DNA of 64,000 nt from an uncultured virus (IMG/VR IMGVR_UViG_3300025936_000004) (IMGVR_UViG_3300025936_000004), one strand, 5' to 3'; shown: positions 5,472 to 62,775, counted from the first letter of the stretch. The notes: generated by a model not told the origin, from the sequence alone. Numbers and translations: made by a program.

Positions 5472-5709
5472 GGTGCCGCTAGGGTGCCGAGACTGCGTTC
5501 CCAGGGAGGGTCTTCAGGGGTACGGGAGGGTACGGGAGGGTACGGGCAAAAGGGCGTTGTTACACGGTGTTGGAAGATAAACGCGCGACTCCGCACGGTT
5601 TGTAGAAAAGCCCTCGTACCGGGTTCGACTCCCGGCGCCTCCACTGATTTCCCCTGAAGATTTCCCATCGAAAACGCTCCTAGATGATCACGGTGCCGCT
5701 AGGGTGCCG
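5472..5709. other. attP region: tmRNA 3'-end core, arm-type repeats and 10-bp tandem repeats
   Basis: GGTGCCGCTAGGGTGCCG at 5472-5489 and 5692-5709; (GGGTACGGGA)x3, last copy imperfect, at 5518-5547; CCGGGTTCGACTCCCGG-CGCCTCCA at 5619-5643; directly downstream of the integrase. Confidence 0.85.
5619..5644 (+). ncRNA. 3' fragment of tmRNA (T-arm plus acceptor strand), the att core
   Basis: T-arm CCGGG-TTCGACT-CCCGG then CGCCTCCA, the Ala-type acceptor 3' strand typical of tmRNA; no 5' half nearby. Confidence 0.7.
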
Positions 5710-6791
5710 CGGCCAGAGATGGCCGCTGCTCCGTCCAGCAGCGCGACGGCCTCCCGATGAACCGACGGTGCCAGGTGGGCGTACCGCATGGTCATCTCGA
5801 TCGTGGCGTGGCCCATCAGCTCCTGAACGGCCTTGAGCGAGACCCCGCGCATGACCAGGTGGCTAGCGAAGGTGTGCCGAAGCACGTGCCAGCCGACTTG
5901 GCGCAGACCGGCCCGCCGGCTGGCGGACCATAGGGGCCACTTGCATTCACCGCGGGCGAGTAGCTCGCCCTTTGGATCGCAGAACACCAGCTTGCTCCGC
6001 AGGTGACGGTGCGCCTTGAGGGCATCGAGAGCCTGGGGACTTAGTGGCACCTCGCGGCTTCGGCCCCCCTTGGGTGTTCCGATCCGACCGCGCGCAACGG
6101 CTTGCCGAACGTTGAGATGAGCCGCCCGTAGGTCGACATCCTCCCAGCGCAGGGCCAGCAGCTCACCGATGCGAAGGCCGGTCCGGAGCCCGAGCGTGAT
6201 CATGCACCGCCACTCGGGCGCAGCCCCGGCAATCAAGCGCTCGGCTTCGTCGAAGTCGAAAAAGTCGAACCGGGGCTTGGGCACCTTGAGCCACTTGAAC
6301 TTCGGGACATGGCTCAGGCGTTTCCACTCGACGGCGACGTCCAAAAGCTTACGCAGGACCGTCAAGTGGTTGTTGATGGTCTTGGGAGACAGTGGCTTCT
6401 CGCCCCCAAGCTTGCTAGCCTTGTACGCCTCGATCTTTCGCAGATCGATGGCATCAAGCCTAAGCCCTTTGAAGTGGGGCACCAAGTGTTGATCTAGCAC
6501 GTCGCGCTTGGTGTCCACTTCGCTTGGTTTGTTGTTCACCGTCGCATAGATGGTGACGAACTCCTTAGCGAAGTCTTCGAGCAAGGGCACCTCCGCGCGG
6601 CGCGGACCTCCGCCCGCCAATTGGTTGAGTAGTTCCCGCTCGAGCTGCTCGGCAGCCCGTCGTGTTTGCACGCGCGGGATCTGACGGATGCGCTCGCGTC
6701 GTCCGTCCGGGTGTTGGTAATCGATATCGACCATCCATCGTTTGCATTCCTGTCCGTCTTTGTTGCGACGGGTTCGCTGCCTGACACTCAT
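5688..6791 (-). CDS. int: Tyrosine integrase
   Basis: TGLRIGEL (R), TPK (K), HVLRH, MGH, TMRY catalytic motifs; start coupled to the xis stop. Confidence 0.97.
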   Translation of the reverse strand: MSVRQRTRRNKDGQECKRWMVDIDYQHPDGRRERIRQIPRVQTRRAAEQLERELLNQLAGGGPRRAEVPLLEDFAKEFVTIYATVNNKPSEVDTKRDVLDQHLVPHFKGLRLDAIDLRKIEAYKASKLGGEKPLSPKTINNHLTVLRKLLDVAVEWKRLSHVPKFKWLKVPKPRFDFFDFDEAERLIAGAAPEWRCMITLGLRTGLRIGELLALRWEDVDLRAAHLNVRQAVARGRIGTPKGGRSREVPLSPQALDALKAHRHLRSKLVFCDPKGELLARGECKWPLWSASRRAGLRQVGWHVLRHTFASHLVMRGVSLKAVQELMGHATIEMTMRYAHLAPSVHREAVALLDGAAAISGRGTLAAP

Positions 6792-7003
6792 CGGATACTC
6801 CGATTGCGTGGGCCGCGGCGTTGACCTTCCGGAAGCCACGCTATCACGGCCTTTCGGCTGATCCGAATGTGGGCACCCATGTAATGGACGCCCGGAACGT
6901 CGCCCCGCCGAATTGCAGCGTAGGCGGTTTTCCGGTGCACCCGCATAAGCTTGGCAAGCTCGTCTACAGTCAGAACTTCGGGCAGTTCTTTGGCTGCGCT
7001 CAT
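6788..7003 (-). CDS. xis: Excisionase (HTH_17-like)
   Basis: VLTVDELAKLMRVHRKTAY...G...IRISR; immediately upstream of int. Confidence 0.88.
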   Translation of the reverse strand: MSAAKELPEVLTVDELAKLMRVHRKTAYAAIRRGDVPGVHYMGAHIRISRKAVIAWLPEGQRRGPRNRSIR

Positions 7004-7410
7004 CGAATCACTCCCATTCTCTGCGCCCAACGTAGAATGATCGGAGCCGGCTCAAACCACTCGCCGTGTTTGCGGTATCTCGCAAAACGTCGATGGAGCC
7101 ACCGCTCTCGCTCGCGGTCACCCTCGAACAACGCAATCACTTCAAGCGGCCAAGGCGACATGTTGCAGAGTGACCTGAACCGGTTTTCAAAGTCGGTCGA
7201 CGTCCCGATCTTGATAGGTCCGGTTGTCGTCGCCTGAAGGGCGTAGATCACGGACCGATGATCGAATGGGCGAGCTTCGCTACCGCGAACCCATTCAACC
7301 CGACCGTCCTTCAGAACGGGAATCTTATGAGTCCGGCACCACACACGGAACGCTTCCGCCCTGCGAGAGCCTTCGCGATCCGGCTCGGAATAGACGATCC
7401 TACCGCCCAT
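7000..7410 (-). CDS. GIY-YIG-superfamily T5orf172/MUG113-like protein
   Basis: VIYALQ...IKIG.S...RF..L...E..LH.RF..YR..GEWF; GAGGAG RBS; start approximate. Confidence 0.8.
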   Translation of the reverse strand: MGGRIVYSEPDREGSRRAEAFRVWCRTHKIPVLKDGRVEWVRGSEARPFDHRSVIYALQATTTGPIKIGTSTDFENRFRSLCNMSPWPLEVIALFEGDRERERWLHRRFARYRKHGEWFEPAPIILRWAQRMGVIR

Positions 7411-7713
7411 CACCACGCTCCTCGCCCCCACGTAGCCGCTCCGCACTCTGCGGGCACTCGTCGGGCAATCTTGCATGATAGCACAAGCGTCAGCCGCTCC
7501 CATCGACGTCTCCTTGCTTCCCCGCCCACGCTTGCAGACACTTCGCGCTACACAGGTGCCACGTCTTGCCAGCGCCTCGACACACCGCGTACCAGTCCGT
7601 TGGCACGTACGACGCGATTTTGAGCGGGCAGTACCCCTGGTCGTACGCCACCTCACGCCTAAGGCACTGGTCGCAGTAGTACATCACGCTGTGGCGCTCG
7701 GTCCTGGCCACGG

Positions 7714-26378: not shown

Positions 26379-26454
26379 CACGGTGTAGCTCAACGGCAGA
26401 GCGCGGGACTGGTGACTTTCCCGAGGTTGCTTGGTTCGACTCCAAGCCCCGTGA
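26379..26454 (+). tRNA. tRNA-like element with 10-nt anticodon loop (Thr-GGT-like or pseudo-tRNA)
   Basis: CACGGTG-TA-GCTC-AACGGCA-GAGC-G-CGGGA-CTGGTGACTT-TCCCG-AGGTTG-CTTGG-TTCGACT-CCAAG-CCCCGTG-A. Confidence 0.65.
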
Positions 26455-26590
26455 CCGAGCCTGAGTCACCGAGCTTCCGCGGCCCCACGCGGCGCCTAAG
26501 GTGACACGGGCTCTTTGATCACTCCCGCCCGCTGATCTGAAAGCGGTGCCCCGACATCGCCCGCGGTGAATGCGTGGCGGGACCTAGACG

Positions 26591-27009: not shown

Positions 27010-27543
27010 TCAAGTTGTCCAAGGGCGGCGTTGCTTTTCGTGGATTCGCCAATCCCGTGGCTTCATGCGGGCTAGCTTGAATAGATCTTGTTCTTCAAGC
27101 GGACGCGTTGATCGGATCTCTTTCAGCGCTTTGATGATTCGCAGTAGGTCATCACAGGGCGTGAACCATTCACCACGCAGGTGAAACCGGCGAAACCGCC
27201 AATGCAGCATCTTTTCGGCTTTGCGGCCACCGGGACACCAAGCCAAGCATTGCAGCGCATGCGGGTGAGACGTCTGTAACTCTTTCAGTCTTGTCCCAAC
27301 GTGAAACGCGATTCCGATCTTGATCGGACCGTTGTCAGACTGAATGAAGTAGACCTTGCGCCTCTTTCCGGCTCTCTCTGTTTTTTGGGCGAGCCTTTCC
27401 GCGCGCTCTTCTCGGTATGCAATCAAGCATCCGCTGCACCAATCGATGAGCTTCGAGCTGACCTCCCCACGAACTCTGAATGGTTCGAGCTCGATCTTAG
27501 CCCCGCACTTGGTGCAGTGTTTTCCCTGAACTAAAGTATCCAT
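27010..27543 (-). CDS. GIY-YIG-superfamily T5orf172/MUG113-like protein, antisense insertion
   Basis: VYFIQ...IKIG....RL.ELQT..P..L...E..LH.RF......GEWF; N-terminal CTKC/CSGC. Confidence 0.82.
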   Translation of the reverse strand: MDTLVQGKHCTKCGAKIELEPFRVRGEVSSKLIDWCSGCLIAYREERAERLAQKTERAGKRRKVYFIQSDNGPIKIGIAFHVGTRLKELQTSHPHALQCLAWCPGGRKAEKMLHWRFRRFHLRGEWFTPCDDLLRIIKALKEIRSTRPLEEQDLFKLARMKPRDWRIHEKQRRPWTT

Positions 27544-27679
27544 GCTGGCGGGCTCCATTCCCGCTAGTCATGGGCCCGGCTGTTAGCAGCAGCGCGGGCC
27601 CACGTTATAAGCAAAGTTTAGCTTTTGGGGCTGGTTGAGCTAGCCAAACTGGCAGGCAGTCTCAAACAGATCTTGTCAA

Positions 27680-28240
27680 GTGAAATCTAGCAAAATCGAC
27701 AAGGCTTCGAAGGAATCCAGAGATTCCGTACCCTCTAAAAAAGAGCTTGCGGCGGAATGGGTGGAGATTACCGCGCTCAAGCCGTGGGATCGCAACCCGC
27801 GGCGCAACGATGACACGCATATTCAGCGGGTAGTCGAGAGCATCAAGCGCTTCGGGTTTGCTGCGCCGATCCTTGCTCGTCGTGAAGACGGCGAAGTGAT
27901 CGCGGGGCACACGCGGCTCAAGGCTGCCGAGATGCTCGGGATGACTCGCGTGCCGGTACGGTTCCTGGACCTGGATCCAGCCGATGCGCACCTGCTCGCG
28001 CTTGCGGACAATCGCTTGAACGAGCTTGGCTCTTGGGACAACGAGCAGCTCATTGCGCTACTCGGTGACCTACGACAGCAGGGCACGGACGTCGCGCTCG
28101 TAGCCGGTTGGCACGATACCGAGATTGATGCGTTGCTCAACACGACAGCAGAAGCGATCGCGCCGGAAGGGTTCAAGTCCTTCGATGAGTCGATCGAGAC
28201 CGAGCACAAGTGCCCCAAGTGCGGGTATGAATGGTCGTAA
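27680..28240 (+). CDS. ParB N-terminal (ParBc) domain protein with C-terminal zinc ribbon
   Basis: LKPWDRNPR.N....V..SIKRFGF..PI...VIAGHTRLKAA...ADNRL.E..WD; CPKCG. Confidence 0.9.
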   Translation: MKSSKIDKASKESRDSVPSKKELAAEWVEITALKPWDRNPRRNDDTHIQRVVESIKRFGFAAPILARREDGEVIAGHTRLKAAEMLGMTRVPVRFLDLDPADAHLLALADNRLNELGSWDNEQLIALLGDLRQQGTDVALVAGWHDTEIDALLNTTAEAIAPEGFKSFDESIETEHKCPKCGYEWS

Positions 28241-29538
28241 AGCGTAAGCAGGCACCAGCGAAGCCGCCTTACCGCGTGCCGAGCATGGCCGAGATCCGGG
28301 CCCTGCCGTGGAACGGTTTCAAGGTCGTAAGCACGTTCTCTGGTGGCGGCGGGTCTTGCCTTGGCTACCGCATGGCCGGCTTCAAGGTGGTCTGGGCGAA
28401 TGAGTTTATCCCCGCAGCGCGTGAGACCTACCAAGCGAACTTCGAAAGCACGATTCTTGATCCGCGGGATATCCGAAAGATCCAGCCCGAGGACATTCTC
28501 AAGGCTACCAAGCTCAAGGTCGGTGAGATTGACTTGCTCGATGGCTCCCCGCCGTGTGCGTCCTTCTCGACGGCCGGTAAGCGTGAAGAAGCCTGGGGCA
28601 AGGTCAAGGCCTACTCGGATACGGCCCAACGCGTTGATGATCTGTTCTTCGAGTACGCGCGCCTACTCAAAGGTCTTCAGCCGAAAACCTTCGTAGCCGA
28701 GAACGTCTCGGGTCTCGTGAAGGGCACGGCCAAGGGCTACTTCAAGGAGATTCTGGCAGCGCTCAAGGCATGCGGGTATCGCGTAGCCGCCCAGCTTCTT
28801 GATGCCCAGTGGCTCGGTGTTCCGCAGGCACGACAGCGATTGATCTTTGTCGGCGTGCGCAATGATCTCGGTCTAGCGCCCGCACACCCAAGCCCGCTGC
28901 CCTATCGATACAGCGTACGCGATGCGTTGCCGTGGATTACTGCCGTGACACACGACGCTAGGGGTTTCGAGGGTACCCGTGTTTTCGATGTTGCGAACGA
29001 GCCCATGTGTACGATCCGTTCCGCGGGTGGTGGCTCAAATATGCGTTTTCATGTGCAGGCTCAGAGCCGGGCCGTGAGCGTCGCAACGCACAAGAAAACG
29101 CGATCACTCGACGAGCCTGCTCCCACCGTGCTTACGCACGGCCGGCGTCACACGAATTCTGAGATCTCTCTCGTGATCGAGCCTGAGGCAGATATCTCGC
29201 GCTATGCGGTCGGTGCCGAATGGGACAAGCTCAAGCAAGGCGAGCAGAGCGAGAAATACTTTCAGCTCGTGCGCCCGGATCCGAACGCGCCGTGCCCGAC
29301 AATCACTCAGCGTGGCGGGGATGCGTCCGTTGCATCAGTCACGCACCCGACGGAGCGGCGTAAGTTCTCAATCGCGGAACTCAAGCGGATCTGTTCATTC
29401 CCGGATGACTTTGTGCTCAAAGGCACCTACGCTCAGCAATGGGAGCGCTGTGGTCGTTCCGTTCCCCCGGTCATGATGGCGGCAATCGCTTCCACGGTTC
29501 GTGACCAGATTCTTCGCAAGCTCTCATGTGCGGCCTAG
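28231..29538 (+). CDS. C5-cytosine DNA methyltransferase-fold enzyme, predicted carboxymethyltransferase
   Basis: Motif I FSGGGG, IV GSPPCASFS, VI ENVSGL, VIII QARQRL, IX R..S..E.KR..SFP; motif X reads ERCGRSV rather than GN(S/A)V. Confidence 0.9.
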   Translation: MVVKRKQAPAKPPYRVPSMAEIRALPWNGFKVVSTFSGGGGSCLGYRMAGFKVVWANEFIPAARETYQANFESTILDPRDIRKIQPEDILKATKLKVGEIDLLDGSPPCASFSTAGKREEAWGKVKAYSDTAQRVDDLFFEYARLLKGLQPKTFVAENVSGLVKGTAKGYFKEILAALKACGYRVAAQLLDAQWLGVPQARQRLIFVGVRNDLGLAPAHPSPLPYRYSVRDALPWITAVTHDARGFEGTRVFDVANEPMCTIRSAGGGSNMRFHVQAQSRAVSVATHKKTRSLDEPAPTVLTHGRRHTNSEISLVIEPEADISRYAVGAEWDKLKQGEQSEKYFQLVRPDPNAPCPTITQRGGDASVASVTHPTERRKFSIAELKRICSFPDDFVLKGTYAQQWERCGRSVPPVMMAAIASTVRDQILRKLSCAA

Positions 29539-30935
29539 TCGGGGGTCTATGGATCCAGCCGACTACCATCGAACGTGGAATCGCCGCACTGATTCACCGT
29601 GGCCCGGATCAACAATCCATCTTCCAGGCCGGTGACGTCGTACTAGGCCATACGCGCCTGGCCATCCTAGACCTCGATCCTCGCAGCAATCAGCCGTTTC
29701 ACTACGGCAAGGTTGCTCTCGCATTCAACGGAGAGATCTGGAATTACAAAGCCGTCCGAGCCCAACTCCAGACGCTTGGCAAAACCTTCACTACGACCGG
29801 TGACACCGAAGTCGTAGCCGCCGCGCTCCAGACGTGGGGCCCTGCTGCGTTGGCCAGGCTCAATGGGATGTTTGCCCTTGCCTGGACGAATGACGGCAAG
29901 ACGCTGCACCTAGCACGCGATCGTTTTGGTGAAGTCCCGCTGCACTATGCGCCCACCAAGCCGTTTGTGTTTGCGTCCGAACTCAAGGCACTGCTTGCCC
30001 TACGAGTCCAGCCCGCAGCGATCACGGATGTAGGACCGGGTGAGCGCCTAGAAGTCTCTGCCAAGGGCATTCGGAAGGCTCGTTGGTACGATCCCCCTGC
30101 CCGTCCCGTTCCGATGACACCCGAAGCCGCGCGGGCCTCCCTACGTGGCTTGATTGAACGAGGGTCTAGAGAGCGAGCGATTAGCGACGTCCCGGTCTGT
30201 ACCCTACTATCCGGCGGGATTGATTCGGCCGCGGTGGCCTACTTCCTAGCCCAAGAGCGTCCCGGGCTTGTAGCCTACACGGCCGTTCTGGATCGCAAGT
30301 CCAAAGACCTCCGGGCGGCTCGAGAGGTTGCTGCTGCGCTTCGGATCGAGTTACGCGAAATTCGCGTCCCGCCGCCATCAGCCGATGACCTGGCCAAGGT
30401 CGTGCGGGTCATCGAGCAGCCCTACAAGGCACAGGTCGAGATCGGCTGGGCTTGTCTACGGCTTGCCCAGGCCATGCATAGCGACGGCTTCAAGGTGACG
30501 TTTAGCGGGGAAGGTTCGGATGAACTCTGGGGCAGCTACGGCTTTGCCTACCACGCGCTCAAAACGCAGGACTGGCACACCTACCGCAAGAACCTGTTTC
30601 TGACCCAAGCCCGCAAGAACTTCCCCCGGTGCAACAAAGTCTTTATGGCCCACTCCGTAGAGTGCCGCCTGCCGTTTCTTCACCCGCCCTTGGTTGAGTT
30701 CGCGCTTTCGCTCCCCCAGCGGGTTGTTCAGGATGGCAAGGCGCGCCCCAAGGCGGTCATTCAGGATGCGATGGCGGGACTACTTCCCGCTATCGTGACG
30801 CGGCGCCCTAAGGTTGCCTTCCAGGACGGCATGGGCCTCAAAGCGGTCATTGAGTCCAGGCTTGCAAGCCCCCAGAGTTTCTATGCAGCCGAGTACCGAC
30901 GAACCTTCGGACGACAGTCTCGAGCATCAGCCTAG
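29526..30935 (+). CDS. Asparagine synthetase B-like glutamine amidotransferase
   Basis: MCG N-terminal nucleophile, HRGPD, RLAILD, NGEIWN, GDTEV, RDRFG, LSGGIDS, SGEGSDE, E.R.PFL. Confidence 0.92.
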   Translation: MCGLVGGLWIQPTTIERGIAALIHRGPDQQSIFQAGDVVLGHTRLAILDLDPRSNQPFHYGKVALAFNGEIWNYKAVRAQLQTLGKTFTTTGDTEVVAAALQTWGPAALARLNGMFALAWTNDGKTLHLARDRFGEVPLHYAPTKPFVFASELKALLALRVQPAAITDVGPGERLEVSAKGIRKARWYDPPARPVPMTPEAARASLRGLIERGSRERAISDVPVCTLLSGGIDSAAVAYFLAQERPGLVAYTAVLDRKSKDLRAAREVAAALRIELREIRVPPPSADDLAKVVRVIEQPYKAQVEIGWACLRLAQAMHSDGFKVTFSGEGSDELWGSYGFAYHALKTQDWHTYRKNLFLTQARKNFPRCNKVFMAHSVECRLPFLHPPLVEFALSLPQRVVQDGKARPKAVIQDAMAGLLPAIVTRRPKVAFQDGMGLKAVIESRLASPQSFYAAEYRRTFGRQSRASA

Positions 30936-31665
30936 CGGTCGGTGGTCGTTTGACCATGCCGTTGCAAGCTGTTTCGATGACATGCTTGCACGCTCGATCC
31001 CGCAATACGAAGCGCTCCGAGACGTCGTCACGCGGTTAACCCTTCGGTACGCACAAGACGGCACTGAGATCGTGGATCTTGGTTGTAGCCGTGGTAGTGG
31101 GCTTGCCCCGATTGCCGACGCGCTCAAAGGCCGATGCACGTTCGTCGGGACGGAAGTCTCTGAACCGATGCTCGCCTATGCCCGCGAGCAGTTTGCCGAT
31201 CGGCCAGATGTCAGCATCCGGCAGCATGACTTGCGTGATACCTACCCGGACGTTCGTGCAAGTGTCACGCTTGCGATTCTTACTTTGCAGTTCGTGCCGG
31301 TTGAATACCGAGCTCGTATCGTCTCTGATGTCTTTCGTTCTACGGTGCCGGGCGGCGCCTTTCTGTTTACAGAGAAGGTCATCGGCTCCACCGTTCGGAT
31401 CGATGACACCCTGATCGCGGAATACCACGCATACAAGCAGTCCCAGGGCTATTCCCCAGAAGCGATCGAGCGCAAACGCGCCTCTCTTGAAGGGGTCTTG
31501 GTTCCGATGCGCGCAGCATGGAACCACCAGATTCTCCAAGGCGCAGGCTTTACGCACGTTGAATGCGTCTGGCGTTGGATGAACTTCGCCGCCTGGGTTG
31601 CAATCAAAGACGGATCCCATGGCTCGGGTCACCAAACCGACCAAACTAACCCCGGAACTCTCTGA
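30883..31665 (+). CDS. cmoA: CmoA-like carboxy-S-adenosylmethionine synthase
   Basis: W.FD..VA..FDDML.RSIP.Y, DLGCS.G, TLQF, EK, I..KR.SLE.V, W...NF follow the CmoA pattern. Confidence 0.85.
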   Translation: MQPSTDEPSDDSLEHQPSGRWSFDHAVASCFDDMLARSIPQYEALRDVVTRLTLRYAQDGTEIVDLGCSRGSGLAPIADALKGRCTFVGTEVSEPMLAYAREQFADRPDVSIRQHDLRDTYPDVRASVTLAILTLQFVPVEYRARIVSDVFRSTVPGGAFLFTEKVIGSTVRIDDTLIAEYHAYKQSQGYSPEAIERKRASLEGVLVPMRAAWNHQILQGAGFTHVECVWRWMNFAAWVAIKDGSHGSGHQTDQTNPGTL

Positions 31666-57350: not shown

Positions 57351-57690
57351 CAACCCGCGCTGGCTCAGAGTTTTGAGAGAGATGCTGACCAGCATGGGCT
57401 TTACGGTCATCCCGGCTCACGACGGCATGGAGGCCTTCAGGCTTGCTCGTGGATATCTTCCGGATGTCGTGGTGAGTGACATTTGGATGGATGTGCTGAA
57501 CGGCTTTGAGCTGTGCAAGTGCATTCGTGCGACCGAGATCACGTCCAAAATCCCGGTGATTCTCTTTTCAAACTTGGACATGTCAAAGGAACGGCTTGAA
57601 CAAGCCAAGGCCGCGGGTGCCGATGCTTGTCTGCCGGGATCACCAGACTTGTCCGCCTTGCTAAGGAAGATTCGGGAGCTATCACCATGA
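57313..57690 (+). CDS. Single-domain response regulator receiver (atypical)
   Basis: ILLVND, A.DG.EA, PDVVVSDIWM, GFELC..IR, IPVIL.S, AGAD. Confidence 0.88.
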   Translation: MADRNKTILLVNDNPRWLRVLREMLTSMGFTVIPAHDGMEAFRLARGYLPDVVVSDIWMDVLNGFELCKCIRATEITSKIPVILFSNLDMSKERLEQAKAAGADACLPGSPDLSALLRKIRELSP

Positions 57691-59957
57691 TACCGAAGAT
57701 CGTCGAGATTCACGCTGCAGCGCCTTCCGTTCTCGTCGCGGTCGCCGAGAGTAGCCAGGACGAAAGCGGGATTGGGACAGCTCCCGACACGCTCGACCTT
57801 GACCCTGCCCATTGGCAGGTGAACGGACAGCCGCCCGTTGCGATTCATCGCGACTCGATGCCGTGGGATGAGGGCAAGGCGAAGACCGCAACGCAGCCCA
57901 ACACGTATCCTGTGACGGTACGCCATCGCATCTACTTGCATTTGGCGGCGCTTCTGCAGGACGGCACAACCTATGCGGTAACGGGCCCCTACGGCAGCCA
58001 AAGCATCGTGTTCGGCAGTCGTACAACGCCTTGCGAATCAATCAAGGTCAACCAAGTCGGTTACTCGGATCGAGCAACGTCCCGTTGGGCCGTGTTCGGT
58101 GTATACCTCGGCAACGGCGGTTCACTTCGTTTCAGCCCGTTCCCGGGCTATCAAGTCATCGATGAGAAGACTGGCAACGTAGTCTTTTCGGGCACCGTCG
58201 CCCGGGAGTTCGATGACACCGCGGTGAGCGCCACGGCCCCGACGTCGGGTGAGTGGGTGTATCGCCTGCCTTTGGATACGGTGCCTGCCGGTGGCCCGTA
58301 CTTTGTCTCGGTGCCAGGGTGCGGCCGATCGCGATCATTCGGGATTGGCCAGGAGTACACCCGAAAGGCTGCCTACGTCGCAACGCGGGGGCTCTATCAC
58401 CAGCGCTGCGGTATTGCCCTGGAAAGTCCGTATACGGAATTCACGCGCGGGATCTGTCACGCGAAGATTGCTGACACGCGTGCACAGTATCCTGGCAACG
58501 GGTTTATCAACGTTCCTTCGGGCGCGGCAATGGCGCCGATTCGGGGCGGCTACCACGACGCAGGCGACTTCCAACGCCGGCCTACGCATACGCTCATCCC
58601 GCTGCTCATGCTGAGCACCTACGAAGCGTGGCCGTCACACTTCATTGACCGGCAGTACAACCTCCCGGAATCCGGAAACGGCATTCCTGACTTTCTCGAC
58701 GAGGCCCTATGGGGCCTTTTGCTTTGGGAAAACTTACAGATCACCACGGCGGGAGATCCGCTGCAAGGTGGCGTGCGAGCCGGCACGCAGCGCGACGCAG
58801 AGCCCACCTACGGAGTCCATAGTGCTGCGAGCGATCCGGGCATGTATGGCACGTGGGCCCCGCTCGAGGAGACTACCGCGTTTGCCTGCGGGATGTTCGC
58901 GCAAGCTTCGCGCTTGGTTCGCCCGTTTGACTCGGCCCATGCCGACGCGCTGCTCAATCGTGCGCGGATGGCATGGGCGTATCTTCAGCGAACCACGAAC
59001 GTCAACCAGGCTGCCACGCGGTTTCTGTACCCCGCGCTACAGCTCTATCTAGCCACAGGGGAACAGCCGTTTCACGATCTGTTCAAGGCAGCTGCGCAAG
59101 CCGTCGTGGTGGTGGGCGCTTGGCCCGAGCAATACCTCCCGGGCAATACAGCAGCCAACTGCCTCACCGTTCACTTCGTGAGCTACCTGCTGCCCACCGA
59201 TCGTGCGGTGGATGCCACGCTGGCCACGGCGCTGAAGAGCAAGATCCTGCAGGGCGCTGCGAGCGGTGGCTACATGAATGTGGACACCGAGAACAGCCCC
59301 TACAGCCAAGGGGTCAACAAGTTCTATTCATGGGGCGCGATGACGGCCCAGGGGCGATACGCGGAAGTCTGTGCCTTTGCCACGCTCTTCGAGACGGACG
59401 CGACCAAGCGTCAAAAGTATACCAACACCGTCTCGCAGCTTGCAGACTACGCTCTCGGTCTCAATCCGCTTGGCAGGTCATTCTACACGGGCCTGGGAAC
59501 CGATTCGCCCAACAGCCCAGGACACTGCGACTCGTACTTTACCAAGTACGGCCTTTCTGATGGTGTGACCAGTGATCACGTCGGCAAGCCCATTGGCAAC
59601 GCGCCCGGTATCCTTGTCTTCGGTCCGACTGCAGGGGCTAGTGGCCAGTCCTACCAGACGGCTGTATCCAAAAAGCTTTCCCCCGACTGGGACGCTCTGC
59701 CGATTCAACGGCGTTACGGTGACGGCTGGTCACTGCTGAACTCCAACGAGTTCAGCACGTGGGAGACGATCGCATGGAACGTGATGATGCTCGGCTTCCT
59801 TCATGACGCGAGCAAAGATCCCGCGTCCATGACTCCGCCGCCCACGCCCGCGCCACAGCCCGGCACCGGGGTTCAGCTCACGGCAGCCCAGACCGACGCG
59901 CTCAAACGCATCATTGCGGATCTAGAGATCCTCAAAAGCGCGATCCCGGCTGGATAA
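57687..59957 (+). CDS. Glycoside hydrolase family 9 with N-terminal Ig-like domain
   Basis: IKVNQVGY, YHQRCG, GGYHDAGD, ESGNGIPD.LDE..W, LG.NP...S..TG.G, NE. Confidence 0.88.
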   Translation: MIPKIVEIHAAAPSVLVAVAESSQDESGIGTAPDTLDLDPAHWQVNGQPPVAIHRDSMPWDEGKAKTATQPNTYPVTVRHRIYLHLAALLQDGTTYAVTGPYGSQSIVFGSRTTPCESIKVNQVGYSDRATSRWAVFGVYLGNGGSLRFSPFPGYQVIDEKTGNVVFSGTVAREFDDTAVSATAPTSGEWVYRLPLDTVPAGGPYFVSVPGCGRSRSFGIGQEYTRKAAYVATRGLYHQRCGIALESPYTEFTRGICHAKIADTRAQYPGNGFINVPSGAAMAPIRGGYHDAGDFQRRPTHTLIPLLMLSTYEAWPSHFIDRQYNLPESGNGIPDFLDEALWGLLLWENLQITTAGDPLQGGVRAGTQRDAEPTYGVHSAASDPGMYGTWAPLEETTAFACGMFAQASRLVRPFDSAHADALLNRARMAWAYLQRTTNVNQAATRFLYPALQLYLATGEQPFHDLFKAAAQAVVVVGAWPEQYLPGNTAANCLTVHFVSYLLPTDRAVDATLATALKSKILQGAASGGYMNVDTENSPYSQGVNKFYSWGAMTAQGRYAEVCAFATLFETDATKRQKYTNTVSQLADYALGLNPLGRSFYTGLGTDSPNSPGHCDSYFTKYGLSDGVTSDHVGKPIGNAPGILVFGPTAGASGQSYQTAVSKKLSPDWDALPIQRRYGDGWSLLNSNEFSTWETIAWNVMMLGFLHDASKDPASMTPPPTPAPQPGTGVQLTAAQTDALKRIIADLEILKSAIPAG

Positions 59958-62001: not shown

Positions 62002-62775
62002 ATGGACAAGTTTGATAGCCCGCTTGCGCCCATCCCATCGTGGCTTGACCCGGTCGCCGAGATCCACGAACCGCCGACGATTCATCTCGAGCCCTACCCG
62101 TTTGCGCTCTTCTGTGTCGACGGCTTGGTTGCAGCAGGCGCGCCACTGCTGCGAGCGTTCGAGGTCGCGGCGCACTTTATGACCGAGACCGGTCGCGGCA
62201 AGGCATTTCGCGCAAACAATCTCGGTGGCGTGAAAGCCACACCGGGCTGGGCCGTGGCGTATCGCATGCGAACGGGCCGATCGGCGCCGTTCTATCGTGC
62301 CCATGGCAACAAGGGCACCGGCGATGCTCAGACCGTGATCTATCGAGGCTACCAGAGCCCTGCGGACTTCTTTGGCGAGTGGCTCTCGCAGTTCGTTCCG
62401 AAGCCCAAGCCCAGCGCATCGTCTCGCGAGGGCGAGGTGGTCCACGTCGCAGACTATCGCCTTGCCGGCGAGCGATTCTGGCTAGGGCGCAACTGGTTCG
62501 CGGCCCTGCTTGCAGCTCACTACCGCGGTGACGTAACCGCTGCGCATCCGGACCAAGCGATCGCTGACAACGCGTCCATTGCGCGAGATGTTCGCGAAGC
62601 GTGGGCACAGCGGGCGCTCAAGGTCCCTGTGGATGCGGCATGGGGCAAGATCAGCAAAACCGCCTGCGCAGCGTATCAGTCGCTTCATGGGCTCGCGGTG
62701 ACTGGATACCCGGATGACGTGACGATCGAGACGCTCGCTCGCAGGGTAGACGCCCCGCCCGCTCCTATGCCATAA
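62002..62775 (+). CDS. Endolysin (glucosaminidase/lysozyme-like domain plus peptidoglycan-binding domain)
   Basis: ETG.G.....NNLGGVKA; C-terminal Q.AL...VD..WG..S..A..AYQ..HGL.VTG..D..T. Confidence 0.75.
   Translation: MDKFDSPLAPIPSWLDPVAEIHEPPTIHLEPYPFALFCVDGLVAAGAPLLRAFEVAAHFMTETGRGKAFRANNLGGVKATPGWAVAYRMRTGRSAPFYRAHGNKGTGDAQTVIYRGYQSPADFFGEWLSQFVPKPKPSASSREGEVVHVADYRLAGERFWLGRNWFAALLAAHYRGDVTAAHPDQAIADNASIARDVREAWAQRALKVPVDAAWGKISKTACAAYQSLHGLAVTGYPDDVTIETLARRVDAPPAPMP

What the first reader, a model, noticed from the sequence alone, without database searches (positions are those of the whole stretch)
29431..29478. Motif X Asn-to-Arg change in the C5 methyltransferase
Seen: QQWERCGRSVPP, with Arg409 (codon 29455-29457) where canonical enzymes have GN(S/A)V (M.HhaI QFGNSV). 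Established: this Asn borders the SAM methyl pocket, and an engineered Asn-to-Lys change there (M.MpeI N374K) turns a C5 MTase into a carboxy-SAM-using carboxymethyltransferase. Inference: the natural Arg salt-bridges the carboxylate of carboxy-SAM. This is the strongest single-residue support for the pathway.
Basis: partly seen in the sequence, partly recalled or inferred. Interest (0 to 1): 0.9.

Follow-up and report, generated by a model that had tools for sequence, protein, structure and literature searches.

The report
Phage cytosine carboxymethyltransferase, CmoX type
The arginine is real and sits where a related phage enzyme, solved in 2025, holds the carboxyl group of carboxy-SAM, so this gene is a further member of the published CmoA-CmoX-CmoY system that decorates phage DNA cytosines, not a new kind of enzyme.

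Summary
ORF 28231..29538 (435 aa, PF00145) reads ...QQWERCGRSVPP..., and R409 (CGT, 29455-29457) lies opposite the motif X Asn of M.HhaI and M.HaeIII.

The best PDB match is 8YF3, SpCmoX of Synechococcus phage S-B43 (Yang et al., Nat Commun 2025, PMC12783734). This is a natural cytosine C5-carboxymethyltransferase whose R350 contacts the carboxymethyl group of Cx-SAM. R409 aligns to R350, and all other named cofactor contacts are conserved.

The window holds the full cassette: ParB-like, CmoX, CmoY and CmoA.

Among 142 unique relatives, 113 of 113 assessable Arg-type genes have a CmoA-like neighbour. None of 22 assessable Asn-type genes has one. This rests on only 1-4 independent switches.

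Two things go beyond the paper's main text:
- The motif IV Gln (M.HhaI Q82) is replaced by Ala or Ser in Arg-type enzymes.
- CmoY here is the glutamine-hydrolysing type, whose product is undemonstrated. I predict 5-carbamoylmethylcytosine.

The scan has met Arg-type cassettes before on other DNA. Verdict: new member of a known kind.

The parts
27680..28240 (+). ParB N-terminal-domain protein (186 aa). Its stop overlaps the cmoX start by 10 nt.
   Evidence: PF02195 E 2.5e-08. The overlap ATGGTCGTAA was read. A ParB-like ORF is found in most related loci, and 1660 ParBc neighbours are reported by Yang et al..
28231..29538 (+). CmoX-type DNA cytosine C5-carboxymethyltransferase (435 aa)
   Evidence: PF00145. 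8YF3 is the best hit by sequence and by fold. 34% identity to SpCmoX, E 1e-69. AF2 model pLDDT 82.9.
28546..28560 (+). Motif IV, S106-P107-P108-C109-A110: the catalytic Cys109 and Ala at the position of M.HhaI Gln82
   Evidence: The SPPC motif is used as a CmoX criterion by Yang et al.. The residue-110 column is A or S in Arg-type and Q in most Asn-type relatives.
29431..29478 (+). Motif X, AQQWERCGRSVPPVMM, with R409 at 29455-29457
   Evidence: pLDDT of residues 401-410 is 93.
29526..30935 (+). CmoY, long type (469 aa): an N-terminal class-II glutamine amidotransferase domain (Cys2) plus an asparagine-synthetase-like PP-loop ligase domain (SGGIDS 229-234)
   Evidence: PF13522, PF13537 and PF00733. 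TIGR01536 293.5 bits, above the 267.1 cut-off. AsnB 1ct9 E 7.4e-42. Glutaminase and PP-loop residues are invariant in 25 of 25 long-type homologues.
30883..31665 (+). CmoA-like carboxy-SAM synthase (260 aa from ATG 30883; the mechanical ORF starts at TTG 30814). It overlaps the cmoY 3' end by 53 nt.
   Evidence: Best NCBIfam hit is TIGR00740 CmoA, E 1.6e-45, 155.6 bits, below the 193.3 cut-off. E. coli CmoA 4gek E 7.1e-31 over residues 18-242. 27% identity to the assayed SpCmoA, E 3e-24. Start codon read.

Best explanation
The gene at 28231..29538 encodes a CmoX-type enzyme. It has the C5-methyltransferase fold and transfers the carboxymethyl group of carboxy-SAM (Cx-SAM), not a methyl group, to C5 of cytosines in the phage's DNA. 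Cys109 attacks C6 as in any C5 methyltransferase (inferred from the family mechanism). R409, at the motif X Asn position, pairs with the cofactor's extra carboxylate; this is shown for the homologue and inferred here. The small residue A110, replacing the motif IV Gln, makes room for the larger group (inferred). Cx-SAM is made by the CmoA-like gene two genes downstream. The resulting 5-carboxymethylcytosine is then probably amidated by the glutamine-hydrolysing, asparagine-synthetase-like CmoY encoded between them. That would give 5-carbamoylmethylcytosine (inferred, never shown). The likely benefit is protection of phage DNA from host nucleases, as carboxymethylation blocked HhaI in the published system.
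For: (1) R409 aligns with SpCmoX R350 and M.HhaI N304. The paper reports that R350 directly contacts the Cx-SAM carboxymethyl group and that the wild-type enzyme accepts only Cx-SAM. (2) All other residues the paper names as cofactor or catalytic contacts are conserved: F25/F36, E47/E58, F48/F59, D69/D80, S95-C98/S106-C109. (3) 8YF3 is the top fold match. (4) The cassette is complete and translationally coupled: ParB, CmoX, CmoY, CmoA. The same order occurs in Streptomyces phage TurkishDelight gp121-125. (5) Co-occurrence in viral contigs: 51 of 51 unique Arg-type relatives have a CmoA-like ORF in the locus, against 0 of 16 Asn-type. In genome contigs the figures are 60 of 62 against 0 of 11, and both misses have under 1900 nt downstream. 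Combined, they are 113 of 113 against 0 of 22 assessable. (6) 12 of 12 weak CmoA-like neighbours that I sampled have CmoA (TIGR00740) as their best NCBIfam hit. (7) 5 of 5 Arg-type genes in cultured phages have CmoA in the same locus. (8) M.HhaI Q82 and N304 line the pocket for the transferred group, and Q82A lowers methylation while raising transfer of larger groups (PMC3526304, passages). (9) The CmoY glutaminase residues (C2, R44, N68-G69-E70, D93) and the PP-loop are invariant in 25 of 25 long-type homologues.
Against: No activity was measured for this protein. Identity to SpCmoX is only 34%, and the target-recognition region (about residues 214-346) does not align and is modelled at low confidence (pLDDT below 50 for 246-290 and 299-311). 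The CmoA-like protein scores below NCBIfam's trusted cut-off (155.6 against 193.3 bits). The Arg/CmoA association follows clades. The 69-row tree needs 4 Arg/Asn changes, at least 3 of them forced. The 142-row tree needs 3, only 1 on a well-supported branch. Sign tests on independent pairs give p 0.25 and 1. A small residue at motif IV is not specific to Arg-type enzymes: Met-type relatives without CmoA also have Ser, and PaBG has Lys. CmoA is not always next to a CmoX: two CmoA loci (an Erwinia phage and an Alcaligenes phage) have no CmoX-like ORF within 4 kb. The amide product is pure inference; the paper's authors could not obtain soluble enzyme of this CmoY type.
Confidence: 0.85

Rival explanations
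1. It is an ordinary SAM-dependent C5 methyltransferase in which Arg is merely tolerated at the motif X Asn position, and the neighbouring CmoA-like gene serves something else, for example tRNA modification.
For: The fold and every catalytic motif of C5 methyltransferases are present. The engineered N374K and N377K enzymes keep some methylation activity with SAM.
Against: Wild-type SpCmoX accepted only Cx-SAM. 0 of 22 assessable Asn-type relatives have CmoA, against 113 of 113 Arg-type. No CmoB-like tRNA partner was noticed in the cassette, though I did not search for one.
Confidence: 0.04
2. The enzyme does use Cx-SAM, but R409 is not the sole or main determinant. The pocket is remodelled at several positions (A110 in motif IV and others), so the single-residue reading is too simple.
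For: SpCmoX R350N is dead with both cofactors rather than switched. 25 of 27 natural Asn-type relatives also carry Gln at motif IV, while none of 115 Arg-type does. M.HhaI Q82 lines the same pocket.
Against: A single Asn-to-Lys change suffices to give M.MpeI and M.MedI carboxymethyl transfer. A non-Gln motif IV also occurs in Met-type relatives without CmoA.
Confidence: 0.3
3. The CmoA-like protein makes a different SAM derivative, or CmoY acts on something other than DNA 5-carboxymethylcytosine, so the final base is not the predicted amide. It could be plain 5-carboxymethylcytosine or another adduct.
For: CmoA is below the NCBIfam cut-off and only 27% identical to SpCmoA. The long-type CmoY has never been assayed. 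Many Arg-type loci have no CmoY at all.
Against: CmoA aligns end to end with E. coli CmoA. CmoY sits between cmoX and cmoA with overlapping reading frames. SpCmoY, which shares the ligase domain (24% identity), amidates 5-carboxymethylcytosine in DNA.
Confidence: 0.2

Closest known systems
CmoA-CmoX-CmoY of Synechococcus phage S-B43 (Yang et al., Nat Commun 2025, PMC12783734; CmoX structure PDB 8YF3)
   Same: C5-methyltransferase fold with the SPPC motif and Arg at the motif X Asn position. All named Cx-SAM contacts are conserved. There is a CmoA-like gene and an asparagine-synthetase-like ligase in one cassette.
   Different: Only 34%, 24% and 27% identity for X, Y and A. Gene order is ParB-X-Y-A here and A-Y-X in S-B43. 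The target-recognition region is unrelated, so the GC specificity cannot be carried over. CmoY here has a 200-aa glutamine amidotransferase domain that the 271-aa glycine-ligating SpCmoY lacks.
The 'second largest' CmoY cluster of Yang et al. (representative A0A7T0Q3R0)
   Same: An asparagine-synthetase-like ligase with a glutamine-hydrolysing domain, next to CmoX and CmoA. The authors suggest ammonia as the amine.
   Different: I could not fetch that accession, so membership of the same cluster is inferred from the description alone. The activity is unproven, because the authors' proteins were insoluble.
Streptomyces phage TurkishDelight gp121-125 (MW291017)
   Same: The same five-gene order: ParB, ParB, methyltransferase with GR, glutamine amidotransferase, CmoA-like. 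CmoX is 58% and CmoY 54% identical. It is the only cultured phage of 50,697 records with a full-length long-type CmoY match.
   Different: Annotated only as 'methyltransferase' and 'glutamine amidotransferase domain'. I found no report on its DNA chemistry.
Engineered M.MpeI N374K and M.MedI N377K
   Same: A basic residue at the same motif X Asn position confers carboxymethyl transfer from carboxy-SAM.
   Different: They carry Lys, not Arg. They are laboratory mutants of CG-specific bacterial enzymes and keep methylation activity.
M.HhaI (canonical C5 methyltransferase) and its Q82A/Y254S/N304A variant
   Same: Same fold and catalytic Cys. Q82 and N304 are the two pocket positions that differ in the window's enzyme (A110, R409).
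   Different: M.HhaI uses SAM and has PCQ and GN. The variant was engineered only to make room, with no charge partner.

Membership tests
CmoX (phage DNA cytosine C5-carboxymethyltransferase, Yang et al. 2025) | C5 DNA methyltransferase fold | tested here: met
   PF00145 E 1.4e-57. Foldseek top hit 8yf3, E 9.2e-30.
CmoX (phage DNA cytosine C5-carboxymethyltransferase, Yang et al. 2025) | SPPC motif (S95 P96 P97 C98 of SpCmoX) | tested here: met
   S106 P107 P108 C109.
CmoX (phage DNA cytosine C5-carboxymethyltransferase, Yang et al. 2025) | Arg at the position of SpCmoX R350 (M.HhaI N304) | tested here: met
   R409 aligns to R350 by HMMER and by BLASTP.
CmoX (phage DNA cytosine C5-carboxymethyltransferase, Yang et al. 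2025) | Other Cx-SAM contacts named in the paper (F25, E47, F48, D69) | tested here: met
   F36, E58, F59 and D80 at the aligned positions.
CmoX (phage DNA cytosine C5-carboxymethyltransferase, Yang et al. 2025) | A CmoA (Cx-SAM synthase) gene in the neighbourhood | tested here: met
   The ORF at 30883..31665 has CmoA models as its best hits.
CmoX (phage DNA cytosine C5-carboxymethyltransferase, Yang et al. 2025) | Cx-SAM-dependent carboxymethyl transfer to DNA cytosine C5 | not testable with these tools
   Needs an enzyme assay or LC-MS.
CmoX (phage DNA cytosine C5-carboxymethyltransferase, Yang et al. 2025) | GC target motif (SpCmoX) | tested here: inconclusive
   The target-recognition region does not align with SpCmoX and is modelled at low confidence.
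CmoA (carboxy-SAM synthase, TIGR00740) | Score above the NCBIfam equivalog cut-off | tested here: not met
   155.6 bits against 193.3. It is still the best family by far (E 1.6e-45) and aligns end to end with E. coli CmoA 4gek. I read it as a divergent phage CmoA, not a strict equivalog.
CmoY, long type (glutamine-dependent amide ligase) | PP-loop ATP pyrophosphatase motif SGGxDS and an asparagine-synthase domain | tested here: met
   SGGIDS 229-234. PF00733 E 8.9e-45. TIGR01536 above its cut-off.
CmoY, long type (glutamine-dependent amide ligase) | Intact class-II glutaminase site (N-terminal Cys; Arg, Asn-Gly-Glu and Asp as in AsnB). The AsnB residue names are recalled, not taken from a call. 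| tested here: met
   C2, R44, N68-G69-E70 and D93 are present and invariant in 25 of 25 homologues.
CmoY, long type (glutamine-dependent amide ligase) | Amidation of DNA 5-carboxymethylcytosine | not testable with these tools
   Shown only for the short, glycine-using SpCmoY.
Canonical SAM-dependent C5 DNA methyltransferase | Motif X Gly-Asn and motif IV Pro-Cys-Gln lining the methyl pocket | tested here: not met
   GR (408-409) and PCA (108-110). This is why I do not file it as a plain methylase.

The most novel reading that the evidence does not exclude
The long, glutamine-hydrolysing CmoY converts 5-carboxymethylcytosine in the phage DNA to 5-carbamoylmethylcytosine. None of five spellings of that base's name occurs in the held paper library. 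In addition, cofactor choice in this enzyme family is set by a two-residue switch: motif IV Gln to Ala or Ser, together with motif X Asn to Arg. Asn-type methylases nested inside the Arg-type clade would then be reversions that followed loss of cmoA.
Probability: 0.5. Interest if true: 0.55.

Novelty: new member of a known kind. Interest (0 to 1): 0.3.

Why it matters

Three things remain useful:
- This is a well-resolved example of the glutamine-dependent CmoY branch, whose product nobody has measured. One cultured phage (Streptomyces phage TurkishDelight) has the same cassette, so its DNA could be analysed directly.
- Natural Arg-type and Asn-type sister enzymes at 50-70% identity give a ready set for finding what else, besides the Arg, sets Cx-SAM or SAM use. 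The motif IV Gln position is the first candidate. This bears on engineering carboxymethyltransferases for methylation sequencing.
- The cassette turns up in contigs binned with Verrucomicrobiota, Planctomycetota, Acidobacteriota and Actinomycetota, so the modification is widespread in soil and freshwater phages.

Tried and rejected
- The window's own assembly is not held. I used the nearest virus record instead.
- A notes look-up by place found nothing.
- The DNA-level search of phage records found only TurkishDelight and PaBG.
- I tried to show the Arg/CmoA link independently of phylogeny. It did not reach significance: 3 of 3 concordant independent pairs, p 0.25, on the 69-row tree, and 1 supported pair, p 1, on the 142-row tree. 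The counts are perfect but reflect few events.
- I considered 'PC followed by Ala or Ser' as a CmoX-specific signature and rejected it as exclusive. Met-type relatives without CmoA also have Ser, and PaBG's Arg-type enzyme has Lys. Only the absence of Gln holds. The genome-contig search pattern itself allowed only A, S or Q at that position in one of its two patterns, which biases that column but not its pairing with motif X.
- I could not measure the distance from R409 to the cofactor. Model coordinates are not exposed to scripts, and the fold tool takes no ligand.
- I did not use complex prediction, because no protein-protein claim is made.
- I did not use the large protein-homology searches, because the loci gave enough relatives.
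- The host was not identified. The best CmoY and CmoA matches lie on a contig binned as Gemmataceae (L083), which is a weak hint only.

Full report
**What is in the sequence.** The ORF at 28231..29538 (+) encodes 435 residues. Positions 29431..29478 read AQQWERCGRSVPPVMM, and R409 is CGT at 29455-29457. The protein is a C5 DNA methyltransferase by Pfam (PF00145, E 1.4e-57) and by NCBIfam (TIGR00675). HMMER alignments to solved structures put R409 opposite the Asn of the 'GN(S/A)V' motif X of M.HhaI, M.HaeIII and the 3g7u prophage enzyme. An independently assembled IMG/VR contig encodes the identical protein.

**What it is.** The best hit among all PDB sequences is 8yf3_A (E 1.4e-71), whose motif X reads ...ERvGRmVPP. 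A full-text search for that code led to Yang et al., Nat Commun 2025 (PMC12783734). I read its abstract, Results and Discussion. The paper makes these points:
- SpCmoX of Synechococcus phage S-B43 is a natural cytosine C5-carboxymethyltransferase.
- It uses carboxy-SAM made by a phage CmoA.
[quoted passage not shown] - An asparagine-synthetase-like ligase, CmoY, then joins glycine to the carboxyl group.
- 5,615 candidate CmoX sequences were collected by requiring the SPPC motif and R350. Their neighbours included 4,257 CmoA, 2,251 ligases and 1,660 ParBc proteins.

**How the window's protein compares.** R409 aligns to R350 by HMMER and by BLASTP. The other named contacts are all present: F36, E58, F59, D80 and S106-P107-P108-C109, for F25, E47, F48, D69 and S95-C98. 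An AlphaFold2 model built on 39 sequences has mean pLDDT 82.9, and 93 for residues 401-410. Its best Foldseek match in the PDB is 8yf3 (E 9.2e-30, TM on target 0.81). Overall identity to SpCmoX is 34%. The region between about residues 214 and 346, which holds target recognition, neither aligns nor models well. The GC specificity of SpCmoX therefore cannot be assumed here.

**The neighbourhood.** The gene sits in a tight cassette, in this order:

| Gene | Coordinates | Evidence |
|---|---|---|
| ParB-N protein | 27680..28240 | Stop overlaps the cmoX start by 10 nt |
| cmoX | 28231..29538 | See above |
| Asparagine-synthase-like gene, 469 aa | 29526..30935 | Full N-terminal glutamine amidotransferase domain; TIGR01536 above cut-off; AsnB 1ct9 E 7.4e-42 |
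| CmoA-like gene | 30883..31665 | TIGR00740 is by far the best family but below its cut-off, 155.6 against 193.3 bits; E. coli CmoA 4gek E 7.1e-31 |

Small and large terminase and portal genes follow. Upstream lie primase and DnaB-like helicase genes, a tRNA-His and an integrase. The window is therefore a temperate-type tailed phage genome. Streptomyces phage TurkishDelight has the same order in gp121-125.

**Does the Arg track the cofactor supply?** I fetched 80 viral loci around relatives of the protein. I then looked for CmoA-, CmoY- and ParB-like ORFs in each.
- I left out the TurkishDelight locus (a GenBank record, not from this scan) and three loci of the window's own phage. Of the remaining 78, 8 were duplicates and 3 were truncated.
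- 51 of 51 unique Arg-type genes have a CmoA-like ORF in the locus. 0 of 16 Asn-type genes do, and 15 of those 16 have at least 1500 nt downstream.
- The weaker CmoA-like ORFs are real family members: 12 of 12 that I sampled have TIGR00740 as their best NCBIfam hit, all below cut-off.

A second, separate sample of 80 bacterial and MAG contigs gave a similar split. CmoA was found with 60 of 62 Arg-type genes and 0 of 11 Asn-type. The two misses are loci with under 1900 nt downstream.

In the combined set of 142 unique proteins the split is 113 of 113 against 0 of 22 assessable. In cultured phages, 5 of 5 Arg-type genes have CmoA in the locus (TurkishDelight, S-B43, S-CRM01, Moraxella phage Mcat8, PaBG). 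0 of 7 non-Arg genes do.

**The caveat on those counts.** The trait follows clades. The 69-row tree needs 4 Arg/Asn changes, at least 3 forced by supported branches. The 142-row tree needs 3, with one on a supported branch. The independent-pair sign tests are not significant (p 0.25 and 1). The counts agree with the paper but add little independent statistical weight.

**A second pocket position.** Only one other alignment column separated Arg-type from Asn-type relatives as cleanly as column 409: residue 110, directly after the catalytic Cys.
- Arg-type enzymes have Ala (as here), Ser (as SpCmoX), rarely Cys, and Lys in PaBG.
- 25 of 27 Asn-type relatives have the canonical Gln, and none of 115 Arg-type does.
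- This is M.HhaI Gln82. Lukinavicius et al. 2012 (PMC3526304, passages read) modelled Gln82, Tyr254 and Asn304 as the residues crowding the transferred group. They found that Q82A lowers methylation about 16-fold while raising transfer of larger groups.
- The word 'Gln' does not occur in the main text of Yang et al.. I did not see their supplementary logo.
- A small residue here is not unique to CmoX. A group of 'GMSVPP' Met-type relatives without CmoA also has Ser.

I therefore read the position as necessary room, not as the selectivity determinant. A double change may be needed.

**The ligase.** SpCmoY is 271 aa, lacks a glutaminase domain and uses glycine. The window's CmoY shares only the ligase domain with it (24% identity, residues 214-446). 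It adds an N-terminal domain starting MCGLVG. Cys2, Arg44, Asn68-Gly69-Glu70, Asp93 and the SGGxDS PP-loop are invariant in 25 of 25 unique long-type homologues. They align with the glutaminase site of AsnB (the AsnB residue names are recalled). This fits the paper's 'second largest cluster', for which the authors propose glutamine-derived ammonia but could not obtain soluble protein. The expected product is the primary amide, 5-carbamoylmethylcytosine. Five spellings of that name have no occurrence in the held library. This is not proof of absence from the literature. Among 50,697 phage records only TurkishDelight has a full-length match to this CmoY.

**Verdict.** Yang et al. 2025 described the system experimentally; their structure, 8YF3, was released in September 2025 and the paper is dated December 2025. 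Earlier notes of this scan reached the same conclusion for Arg-type cassettes on other DNA. This is a new member of a known kind. Modest interest remains in the unassayed glutamine-dependent ligase branch and in the second pocket position.

Noticed in passing
L168-L172 (Phocaeicola phage PV4-TP1, Bacillus phage BMBtp14, Rhodobacteraceae phage LS06-2018-MD05, Cellulophaga phage phi18:3, Flavobacterium phage FpV9): Relatives of the window's enzyme carry Met at the motif X Asn position (...G-M-S-V-P-P) together with SPPC-Ser in motif IV. They have no CmoA-like ORF within 3 kb. This is a third pocket type, and its cofactor is unexplained.
   Followed up: partly
Trees; loci L017, L025, L026 and the 13-member clade L027-L055: Asn-type (GN plus PCQ) enzymes without CmoA are nested among Arg-type enzymes at 50-70% identity. 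This suggests switches between carboxymethyl- and methyl-transferase within one subfamily. The direction is not rooted.
   Followed up: partly
L165 (Pseudomonas phage PaBG, 3010-6164): PaBG has ParB-like, an Arg-type methylase with Lys after the catalytic Cys (PPCK), CmoA (annotated as a tRNA cmo5U34 methyltransferase) and a short asparagine synthase two genes further on.
   Followed up: partly
L174, L175 (Erwinia phage pEa_SNUABM_1; Alcaligenes phage Afa-NA1): These are CmoA genes with no CmoX-like ORF within 4 kb. The Erwinia jumbo phages do have a CmoX-like hit elsewhere in the genome (48 records). For the Alcaligenes phage I did not check.
   Followed up: no
window 57627..59957 (+): A 776-aa ORF with a GH9 glycoside hydrolase domain and a CelD_N Ig-like domain. 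It lies between baseplate/tail genes and a peptidoglycan-binding (lysis) gene at 62002..62775. It may be a tail-associated polysaccharide depolymerase.
   Followed up: no
window 27010..27558 (-) and 7000..7656 (-): Two ORFs with T5orf172/MUG113 domains (GIY-YIG-like nuclease family). One lies directly upstream of the ParB-cmoX cassette on the opposite strand.
   Followed up: no
window 5688..6839 (-) and 26379..26456 (+): A tyrosine integrase (PF00589, E 1e-32) and a tRNA-His(GTG) gene. The phage is probably temperate.
   Followed up: no
L089, L090, L092, L110, L116, L125; also L103, L119, L120, L122, L124 and L105, L111, L115, L117: Single Verrucomicrobiota MAGs carry four to six separate contigs each, every one with an Arg-type CmoX followed by CmoA. 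Either several related prophages or phage contigs were binned together.
   Followed up: no
window 30883..30935: The likely ATG start of cmoA lies 53 nt inside the 3' end of cmoY. In most relatives the CmoA ORF, as my scripts called it (first start codon after a stop), overlaps the gene before it by 16-34 nt.
   Followed up: partly
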